The notes under the pieces are model-generated. The model searched no databases, was not told where the DNA came from, and saw only the letters and a list, made by a program, of their open reading frames with translations. The translations under genes were made by a program, and so were the position numbers. 42,832 nucleotides of DNA from assembly GCA_964534625.1 (NCBI GenBank), contig CAZHRF010000028.1:1-42832 (forward strand). Reading direction: 5' to 3'. The stretch comes from an uncultured archaeon. GTDB lineage: Archaea; Asgardarchaeota; Heimdallarchaeia; Heimdallarchaeales; Heimdallarchaeaceae. Numbering within the stretch: the stretch's first letter is position 1; each line of letters opens with the position of its first letter. Below, one piece after another: positions 32,084 through 33,313 of this stretch.

Positions 32084-33313
32084 TTATTCTTCTTTTGTTT
32101 CTTCTTCTAACATGGTTAGCTCACAAATTCTATGTTCTGTTTTGATTAATTTGCAAGGAACTTTACTGGTCTCTTGGATCCATTGTTCACAAGAGTCGCA
32201 TATTTTTTCTTCTGTCCAATAGTTACATACAATTAAAAACTTGGATTCATCAAAATAAAAATCAGAAATGAATGGTGCTTTATTAAATAATTGTATTAGT
32301 CTTATAAGCGGTTCAAGATCATAATATATTTCGAGTCCAATGTCGTCTTTTATCATTTGAATTGTTTCTTCTCTTTCTTTTTTGGCCATTTCCATAATAG
32401 CTTGTAATTCTCTAAATGTTGTTTTCTCATTTCCACTAGTTTTAGGTAGTACCTGGAATAAACACTCCTGTACATAACTATACTCTGCAGCACATCTCGT
32501 TTCCTTACAGCGTATTTGCCTATTATAGAGATTTTTAAAAATAGACTCTAACAATCCTTCGATAAAGGCACAAGCTTTAGTCGCTATAACTCCTAATGAT
32601 TCTGTCCATATGGAGTTTCTTACTGATATTGTAGCCACATTTTCTTCAGGATCTAAATGTAGTATAGAAAACTTTCCCCATCTTGAGATTGTACTAGATC
32701 GCAAAATACGATCCAAGGTAGTTCTTAGTGGCTCTTTATCTTGTTTTTGGTAATCTTGAATTGCTTTTCTTCCAGCTTCTGTTCCTACCTTCCCTAAAAT
32801 TTGAGATATAGCATCTTGTTGTTCTCCAAATTGACCATAAAAGAGGTCCTGAAAAATAGAGATGGCTGTATCTCGCAAATTAGTTAAATGTTTGGCTAGT
32901 TCTGGAAAATCTTTAAGGCTGGGATTAGGGGTAGTAATAACGCTAGCCATTTCTGGTAACATATTCATTTTGCTGATTGTTTTCCGCATTTCTTCTTCCA
33001 AAGATGATATCATCATATATTCCGTAATTGTAGGTTCAAATACAATTGTTGTCAACATTAATTGTTCCATACCTCCACGAGCTAAAGGATTAGGGATGGG
33101 AAAAAACATACTTGAATAGACAACATTAGCCATTGCGTTAACAAAGGCTTTCATCTCTTCAAGAAAGTTAAAATCCATTAACCGTGTTAATGAAGAAATG
33201 ACTCGTGAATCTCTTATTTCAGCTGCATTCAGCAGTAAACGGGGGCCTAATCTCTGATCAAAATGAAACAGCAAAACATTTATCCTGTTAAGTAAATCTG
33301 TTCTATCACTCAT
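32084..33313 (-). CDS. Folliculin/SMCR8-type longin (uDENN) domain fused to a V4R domain
   Basis: N-terminal LFHFDQRLGPR and FFPIPNPLARGG; V4R motifs GKVGTEAG, WGKF, ACAFIEGLL, CKETRCAA...CLFQV. Confidence 0.75.
   Translation of the reverse strand: MSDRTDLLNRINVLLFHFDQRLGPRLLLNAAEIRDSRVISSLTRLMDFNFLEEMKAFVNAMANVVYSSMFFPIPNPLARGGMEQLMLTTIVFEPTITEYMMISSLEEEMRKTISKMNMLPEMASVITTPNPSLKDFPELAKHLTNLRDTAISIFQDLFYGQFGEQQDAISQILGKVGTEAGRKAIQDYQKQDKEPLRTTLDRILRSSTISRWGKFSILHLDPEENVATISVRNSIWTESLGVIATKACAFIEGLLESIFKNLYNRQIRCKETRCAAEYSYVQECLFQVLPKTSGNEKTTFRELQAIMEMAKKEREETIQMIKDDIGLEIYYDLEPLIRLIQLFNKAPFISDFYFDESKFLIVCNYWTEEKICDSCEQWIQETSKVPCKLIKTEHRICELTMLEEETKEE

What the first reader, a model, noticed from the sequence alone, without database searches (positions are those of the whole stretch)
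32084..33313. Folliculin-like longin domain with intact arginine finger fused to a V4R domain
Seen: LFHFDQRLGPR and FFPIPNPLARGG, then a V4R domain with Zn-type Cys residues and a further Cys-rich tail. Known: folliculin and SMCR8 longin domains have an HF...GP start and an ARG motif whose Arg is the GAP finger; V4R shares the fold of TRAPP Bet3 subunits, which partner longin proteins. Inference: a one-component, ligand-responsive GAP for Asgard small GTPases, linking prokaryotic sensing to FLCN/TRAPP-like regulation.
Basis: partly seen in the sequence, partly recalled or inferred. Interest (0 to 1): 0.7.

Follow-up and report, generated by a model that had tools for sequence, protein, structure and literature searches.

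The report
Asgard folliculin-type longin fused to V4R
This conserved gene of a Heimdall-group (Asgard) archaeon joins a folliculin-type domain, which keeps the arginine that eukaryotes use to switch off small GTPases, to a zinc-site sensor-type domain; it probably turns off a GTPase in response to a signal, but the domain family is already published and the activity is untested.

Summary
Observation confirmed. ORF 32084-33313(-), 409 aa, one copy in 27 of 28 related genomes, has three parts. (1) A longin domain (model pLDDT 91) whose best Foldseek matches are GATOR1 and folliculin chains; a family profile aligns Arg79 on FLCN Arg164 and Phe18 on FLCN Phe10. (2) A V4R domain with the MopR/MsvR Cys-Glu-Cys-Cys site, closer to PoxR/MopR than to Bet3, without the phenol-binding residues. 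(3) A four-cysteine tail of unresolved fold. The longin belongs to a large Asgard family that is also fused to Arf-like GTPases, PAS, receiver and GAF domains and membrane receptors, and is operon-paired with a V4R sensor gene in another Heimdall family. Best reading: an arginine-finger GAP, probably dimeric and probably for an Arf-like GTPase (0.6); signal gating is inferred (about 0.35), and redox rivals ligand as input. The TRAPP link is weak. Prior art covers the Asgard GP/Arg longins, their sensor fusions and one Heimdall longin-TRAPPC3 fusion, which may be a different family (this genome has a second such fusion). The scan found this gene before on other DNA (at least eight notes).

The parts
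32084..33313 (-). Whole gene, 409 aa: GAP-type longin + V4R + four-cysteine tail
32837..33292 (-). Longin domain of the FLCN/NPRL2/SMCR8 type, residues 8-159
   Evidence: model pLDDT 90.8; fold matches; coordinates
33242..33265 (-). Strand 1-2 loop H17-P24 with GP motif; F18 = FLCN F10, F18-D19 spaced like C9orf72 W33-D34
   Evidence: alignment; PMC12290439; PMC9473554
33071..33091 (-). Strand 4-5 loop N75-G81 carrying the putative finger R79 (codon 33077-33079)
   Evidence: R79 aligned on FLCN R164; invariant in 63 family members of alignment A4
32441..32827 (-). V4R domain, residues 163-291, with metal/redox site C248-E271-C274-C284
   Evidence: Pfam; PoxR Z 14.2, rmsd 3.1, 127 aligned; MopR alignment; MsvR hit
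32105..32431 (-). C-terminal domain, residues 295-403, with invariant C363, C372, C375, C397; possibly a degenerate second V4R (not shown)
   Evidence: atlas lead 0.77; profile comparisons null
33461..34549 (-). Context only: upstream hydantoinase/MfnF-like gene; abuts or overlaps the target in 11 related loci, 147 bases apart here
17430..18164 (-).

Best explanation
A cytoplasmic GTPase-activating protein. Two longin domains, most simply from a homodimer held by the V4R domains, form a cradle for a GTP-loaded small GTPase; the strand 1-2 loop (F18, D19, GP) grips the switch regions and R79 inserts into the active site to speed hydrolysis, as in FLCN-FNIP, GATOR1 and C9orf72-SMCR8. The substrate is most likely an Arf-like GTPase. 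The V4R domain and the Cys tail are a built-in input (small hydrophobic ligand or thiol/zinc redox state) that gates the longin pair. SHOWN: fold, motif positions, conservation, domain partners of the family. INFERRED: catalysis (0.6), Arf-like substrate (about 0.4 given catalysis; Rag-like and Rab-like remain), homodimer, signal gating (about 0.35 overall).
For: Longin model matches GATOR1/FLCN chains first; ESM atlas lists NPRL2, C9orf72, SMCR8 at TM 0.66-0.71. Profile A9 finds human FLCN as the best natural hit in the PDB (E 0.032) with R79 on R164 and the GP loop in register; a family member passes the Pfam Folliculin cut-off across the Arg loop. R164 and F10 are required for FLCN GAP action (PMC9473554); the Arg is shared by SMCR8 and NPRL2. 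G, P and R are the only invariant columns in 63 members (median identity 21% in the 52-row set). The longin core is the most conserved part of the protein (78% vs 56%). Of 54 family proteins 8 are fused to a small GTPase, 9 to PAS, 4 to receiver, 3 to GAF domains, and 7 are membrane receptors with the longin inside. Seven N-terminal fusions carry Arf-like domains with an intact P-loop and catalytic Gln, nearest to three Arf-like proteins of this genome. In family f6 an Arg-bearing longin gene is directly followed by a XylR_N/V4R gene in 9 of 9 loci, from a different branch of a quick tree: V4R and Arg-longin appear paired twice.
Against: No activity has been measured for any Asgard member in the papers found. 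The FLCN sequence match is weak (E 0.03) and needs intermediates. Family members were gathered with a profile that weights the Arg loop, so invariance is partly by selection; Arg-less relatives exist (L197-L204; 8yqg). No GTPase gene is co-transcribed; the gene sits behind C1-metabolism genes. The MopR phenol anchors H106 and W134 are replaced by I209/S210 and V231, so no ligand can be named. Zhu et al. found no convincing Asgard counterpart of the C9orf72-SMCR8 complex (PMC11914678).
Confidence: 0.6

Rival explanations
1. Catalytic half of a heterodimer: the protein supplies the Arg but needs an Arg-less longin partner (like FNIP, NPRL3, C9orf72); V4R is a structural dimer or scaffold module and nothing is sensed.
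For: All three eukaryotic longin GAPs are heterodimers. The genome has a GP-bearing longin without the Arg motif (G000:C22:22726-23208) and family f5 has an Arg-less clade. MopR's zinc site is described as structural.
Against: The protein holds both the finger and an FD pair spaced like the C9orf72 WD holding motif, so a homodimer could supply both faces (inference). The family's other partners are typical sensor domains.
Confidence: 0.2
2. Redox or zinc switch rather than ligand sensor: the V4R cysteines and the four-cysteine tail release zinc or form disulfides on oxidation and so gate the longin, as in MsvR. (A variant of the best explanation in its input step.)
For: Best NCBIfam hit is MsvR over residues 169-288 (E 1.5e-10, below cut-off). 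C248/C274/C284 have the spacing of MsvR C206/C232/C240, which mediate redox control (PMC3729527). Nine invariant Cys plus Glu/His; phenol anchors absent. A thioredoxin-tandem-V4R protein exists in the same genome.
Against: The same cysteines form a structural zinc site in MopR/PoxR and Thor TRAPPC3; in the distant P0027 group the C248 position is Asp.
Confidence: 0.2
3. TRAPP-like exchange factor or scaffold: longin plus Bet3-like domain act as a single-chain GEF platform and the Arg only binds.
For: Most longin platforms are GEFs (PMC10933270). Foldseek ranks a TRAPPC3 first for the whole model, tied with DmpR/MopR.
Against: GP motif is reported absent from TRAPP, adaptin and DENND longins. 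VIA-align puts PoxR/MopR at Z 13-14 above TRAPP subunits at 11.9 or less. The genome has a separate plain-longin/TRAPPC3-type fusion that fits this role better.
Confidence: 0.1
4. No GTPase role: the longin is an adaptor that links a V4R sensor to C1 metabolism (neighbouring MfnF-like, methyltransferase-like and formate-THF ligase genes).
For: Tight coupling to the MfnF-like gene in 11 of 12 same-family loci.
Against: The distant orthologue P0027 has other neighbours (L100); the Arg loop is kept across members with unrelated neighbours and partners.
Confidence: 0.1

Closest known systems
Asgard 'Folliculin/SMCR8-type' longins with GP motif and arginine finger (Novak Vanclova et al. 2025, PMC12290439)
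   Same: Same fold, GP motif and Arg in the same arrangement, Heimdallarchaeia; GAP role and Arf-related or Rag substrates already proposed there.
   Different: The paper's text never mentions V4R; whether this protein is among its 15 sequences could not be checked (supplement not held).
NPRL2-like longin fusions to two-component-type domains in Asgard archaea (Liu et al., bioRxiv 10.1101/2020.10.19.343400)
   Same: Sensor-fused NPRL2-like longins; my family survey finds PAS, receiver, GAF and histidine-kinase partners.
   Different: V4R is not named in the text; the figure is not held.
Heimdall longin-TRAPPC3 fusion MBD3190748.1 (Tran et al. 2024, PMC10933270)
   Same: N-terminal longin followed by a V4R/TRAPPC3-fold domain, modelled as a homodimer.
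   Different: Described with the TRAPPC3 domain at the C-terminus; here a third domain follows. That description fits a second family (about 297 aa, plain longin, no GP/Arg motif) present in this genome. The accession was not among the listed members of our clusters; identity unverified.
Catalytic longins FLCN, NPRL2, SMCR8
   Same: Fold; GP loop; F18 = F10; R79 = R164 of FLCN.
   Different: No DENN or NPRL2 C-terminal domain; no known partner subunit; activity untested; 15-20% identity.
V4R sensors PoxR/MopR/DmpR and MsvR
   Same: Fold (Z 13-14) and the Cys-Glu-Cys-Cys site.
   Different: No XylR_N arm, phenol anchors replaced, output is a longin rather than an ATPase or HTH domain.

Membership tests
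GAP-type longin domains (FLCN/NPRL2/SMCR8 and Asgard relatives) | Longin fold | tested here: met
   (6nzd_H FLCN Z 12.0, rmsd 3.0, 138 aligned)
GAP-type longin domains (FLCN/NPRL2/SMCR8 and Asgard relatives) | GP motif before strand 2 | tested here: met
   G23-P24 invariant; aligns with NPRL2 and FLCN G15-P16
GAP-type longin domains (FLCN/NPRL2/SMCR8 and Asgard relatives) | Arg at the finger position | tested here: met
   R79 on FLCN R164 in profile alignment (E 0.032); in strand 4-5 loop; no coordinate superposition available
GAP-type longin domains (FLCN/NPRL2/SMCR8 and Asgard relatives) | Arg-dependent GAP activity | not testable with these tools
   Needs assay
Eukaryotic FLCN/SMCR8 proteins (whole) | C-terminal DENN module | tested here: not met
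   The region after the longin is V4R; so not a folliculin orthologue
Eukaryotic longin GAP complexes | Longin-longin dimer platform | not tested
   Dimer state not scored; candidate Arg-less partner noted
V4R domain (PF02830) | Pfam score above cut-off, fold, Cys/Glu site | tested here: met
Phenol sensors (MopR/PoxR/DmpR) | His106 and Trp134 anchors, XylR_N arm | tested here: not met
   Aligned positions are I209/S210 and V231; no XylR_N hit
TRAPP Bet3 subunits | Closer to Bet3/TRAPPC3 than to prokaryotic V4R | tested here: inconclusive
   Foldseek ties them; VIA-align favours PoxR/MopR by 2 Z units or more; sequence profile finds MJ1460, MopR, PoxR and no TRAPP chain
Second V4R repeat in the tail | Detectable V4R similarity | tested here: inconclusive
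   Same order of helices and strands, atlas lead 0.77; two profile comparisons null; not folded alone

The most novel reading that the evidence does not exclude
This is a homodimeric, single-gene ancestor-type of the FLCN/GATOR1/CSW GAPs whose Arg finger is switched directly by a metabolite or redox signal read by V4R, and V4R has been recruited to Arg-finger longins twice in Heimdallarchaeia (fusion here, operon pair in family f6); it would be the first native GAP for Asgard Arf-like GTPases.
Probability: 0.25. Interest if true: 0.8.

Novelty: new variant of a known kind. Interest (0 to 1): 0.47.

Why it matters
Native regulators of Asgard Arf-like GTPases are stated to be unknown (PMC11914678), and the GAP role of Asgard GP/Arg longins is only a proposal (PMC12290439). 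This small, soluble, single-copy protein, with a defined point mutant (R79) and a short list of candidate substrates, makes both questions testable. A positive result would place the chemistry of folliculin and GATOR1 before eukaryotes and show how it was wired to prokaryotic sensors. The domain family and the idea are published, which limits surprise.

Tried and rejected
Co-fold of two longin domains with the Arf-like GTPase G000:C38:13184, GTP and Mg gave no verdict (0.24, mark 0.32); it is no evidence either way. Direct phmmer and Pfam Folliculin/NPR2 searches of the protein found nothing; shallow profiles gave only helical noise or weak C9orf72/NPRL2 hits. My first reading that the window's Rab is not syntenic (too narrow a span) was wrong and was corrected. 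MBD3190748.1 could not be retrieved. The longin tree is a quick tree on 108 columns with many open forks and no test_one_clade; it is a lead only. Papers on PDB 8yqg were not found.

Full report
Observation. The finding is a real gene: 32084-33313 on the minus strand, 409 residues, with both quoted motifs. Its 25 close relatives (57-65% identity) are, where named, from Heimdallarchaeaceae or Heimdallarchaeota, and a profile finds one match per genome in 27 of 28 genomes of the same family. A distant full-length group (P0027, about 24% identity in the longin, family f3) keeps all three domains.

Domain 1, longin (residues 8-159). With a 63-row alignment the model has pLDDT 90.8 and pTM 0.88 and the longin order of elements; R79 lies in the loop between strands 4 and 5. 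The top seven Foldseek matches are chains of GATOR1, SEAC and folliculin complexes. VIA-align ranks a Lokiarchaeal longin first (8yqg, Z 14.0, rmsd 3.5, 143 aligned), then a GATOR1 chain (Z 12.2) and FLCN (6nzd_H, Z 12.0), with other longins close behind, so fold alone separates the GAP type only modestly. The motif does more: a profile built from P0001 and relatives finds human FLCN as the best natural PDB hit (E 0.032), placing R79 on R164 and H17-F18...G23-P24 on H9-F10...G15-P16 (residue numbers counted from the printed alignment). R164 is the FLCN finger and F10 contacts RagC (PMC9473554). One relative passes the Pfam Folliculin cut-off over the Arg loop. G, P and R are the only invariant columns of 63 members. 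Caveat: members were collected with a profile that weights these columns, and Arg-less relatives exist (8yqg).

Domain 2, V4R (163-291). Pfam V4R is above cut-off. Best structural matches are PoxR, MopR and DmpR (Z 13-14) ahead of TRAPP subunits (Z 11.9 at most); Foldseek ties the two groups. C248, E271, C274 and C284 align with MopR C155, E178, C181 and C189 (the three cysteines bind zinc, PMC9556785) and are invariant. The phenol anchors H106 and W134 are replaced by I209/S210 and V231. The best NCBIfam hit is the redox regulator MsvR, whose three functional cysteines have nearly the same spacing (PMC3729527). The input could therefore be a non-phenolic ligand, redox state, or nothing.

Domain 3 (295-403). 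Four cysteines are kept even in the distant group. The order of helices and strands repeats that of V4R and the nearest atlas clusters carry V4R (score 0.77, a lead only), but two profile comparisons were null. Its fold is open.

Family context. The GP/Arg longin is a large Asgard family: 148 of 301 genomes searched, 2-10 copies in family f14, almost none detected in f11. Among 54 sampled proteins, partners include small GTPases (8), PAS (9), receiver (4), GAF (3) and histidine-kinase ATPase (2) domains; 7 large membrane proteins carry the longin after a transmembrane helix. Seven N-terminal fusions have Arf-like domains with intact P-loop and catalytic Gln, nearest to three Arf-like proteins of this genome; one fusion has a Rab-like domain and some have degenerate GTPase domains. 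In family f6 an Arg-bearing longin gene is directly followed by a XylR_N/V4R gene in 9 of 9 loci, one with an internal stop and one cut by a contig end; these longins fall on another branch of a quick tree, which suggests, without proving, a second pairing of V4R with an Arg longin. These genomes are kin and not independent samples.

Gene neighbourhood. The gene follows a methyltransferase-like, a membrane and an MfnF-like gene on the same strand, abutting or overlapping the last in 11 related loci but 147 bases from it here. An Arf-like GTPase lies 7-9 kb upstream in 6 relatives and the Rab at 17430 lies 12-22 kb downstream in 5 of 5; both belong to a conserved housekeeping block and neither is co-transcribed. 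The genome has some 35 or more small GTPases, so the substrate cannot be read from position.

Mechanism. In C9orf72-SMCR8 one longin holds ARF1 and the other supplies the Arg (PMC8213707). This protein has the Arg and an F18-D19 pair spaced like the C9orf72 W33-D34 motif, so a homodimer could play both parts; V4R domains commonly dimerise. I infer an Arg-finger GAP (0.6), most likely for an Arf-like GTPase, with V4R gating (about 0.35). A heterodimer with an Arg-less longin, a GEF/scaffold role and a non-GTPase role are the rivals.

Comparison with what is known. It works like the catalytic longin of FLCN/NPRL2/SMCR8 and meets the fold and motif tests of that domain class, but is not a folliculin (no DENN module). 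Asgard longins with GP motif and Arg finger are published with the same GAP proposal (PMC12290439); NPRL2-like longin fusions to signalling domains are published; one Heimdall longin-TRAPPC3 fusion is published (PMC10933270). That last protein may belong to another family: this genome also encodes a 297-residue plain longin with a C-terminal four-cysteine V4R and no GP/Arg motif, found in 15 of 82 other genomes and not alignable to our longin. I could not fetch the published sequence, so whether the exact GAP-longin/V4R/Cys-tail architecture is in print stays open. Earlier notes of this scan report the same gene in other genomes and the f6 pair; they are not independent evidence.

Verdict. Real, conserved, correctly recognised; a new variant of a known kind; activity, substrate and signal untested. 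Interest 0.47.

Noticed in passing
L177:1198-2088 (G000:C15:14195-15088, minus): Second longin-V4R fusion, 297 aa, plain longin without GP/Arg motif and a C-terminal TRAPPC3-type four-cysteine V4R; patchy, 15 of 82 Heimdallarchaeia genomes; may be the type published by Tran et al.
   Followed up: partly
L185-L193 (family f6): Arg-bearing longin plus Cys/His finger gene directly followed by a XylR_N/V4R sensor gene in 9 of 9 loci.
   Followed up: partly
L001:2540-7339 (G000:C52:6536-11338) and L109: 1600-aa membrane protein with a cytoplasmic GP/Arg longin, flanked by two Rag-like GTPases, an atypical GTPase, a small GTPase and a V4R gene; similar receptors, some in very long frames (up to about 10,000 codons), are expanded in family f5.
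   Followed up: partly
G000:C15:29426-34154: Same-strand run: longin-like gene, membrane gene, 164-aa longin with an Arg in the equivalent loop, Arf-like GTPase (23 bases on), membrane gene, 452-aa longin-led gene; resembles the published DENN operon.
   Followed up: no
L107:2726-3205 (G000:C22:22726-23208): Stand-alone 160-aa longin with GP motif but no Arg motif: candidate non-catalytic partner.
   Followed up: partly
L197-L204 (family f5): Longin paralogues that keep the GP-type loop but have lost the Arg, like C9orf72.
   Followed up: no
L178:857-2416 (G000:C10:64854-66416): Thioredoxin domain fused to two V4R domains, about 500-560 aa, found across the class.
   Followed up: no
L032:2714-5245: Lokiarchaeal-type protein with longin, Arf GTPase, second Arg longin and three PAS domains in one chain.
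   Followed up: no
window 28248-29141 and 31067-32050: Two AN1 zinc finger membrane proteins (one with a peptidase M50 hit) flank the formate-THF ligase gene; the second is 33 bases downstream of the target but adjacent only in some relatives.
   Followed up: partly
window 17430-18884: Rab/Ras-like GTPase with a C-terminal coiled coil, directly after a 234-aa coiled-coil gene and near archaetidylinositol phosphate synthase (19649-20308).
   Followed up: partly
G000:C32:24159-26385: 366-aa longin-led protein divergent from a 309-aa Arf-like GTPase with a C-terminal extension.
   Followed up: no
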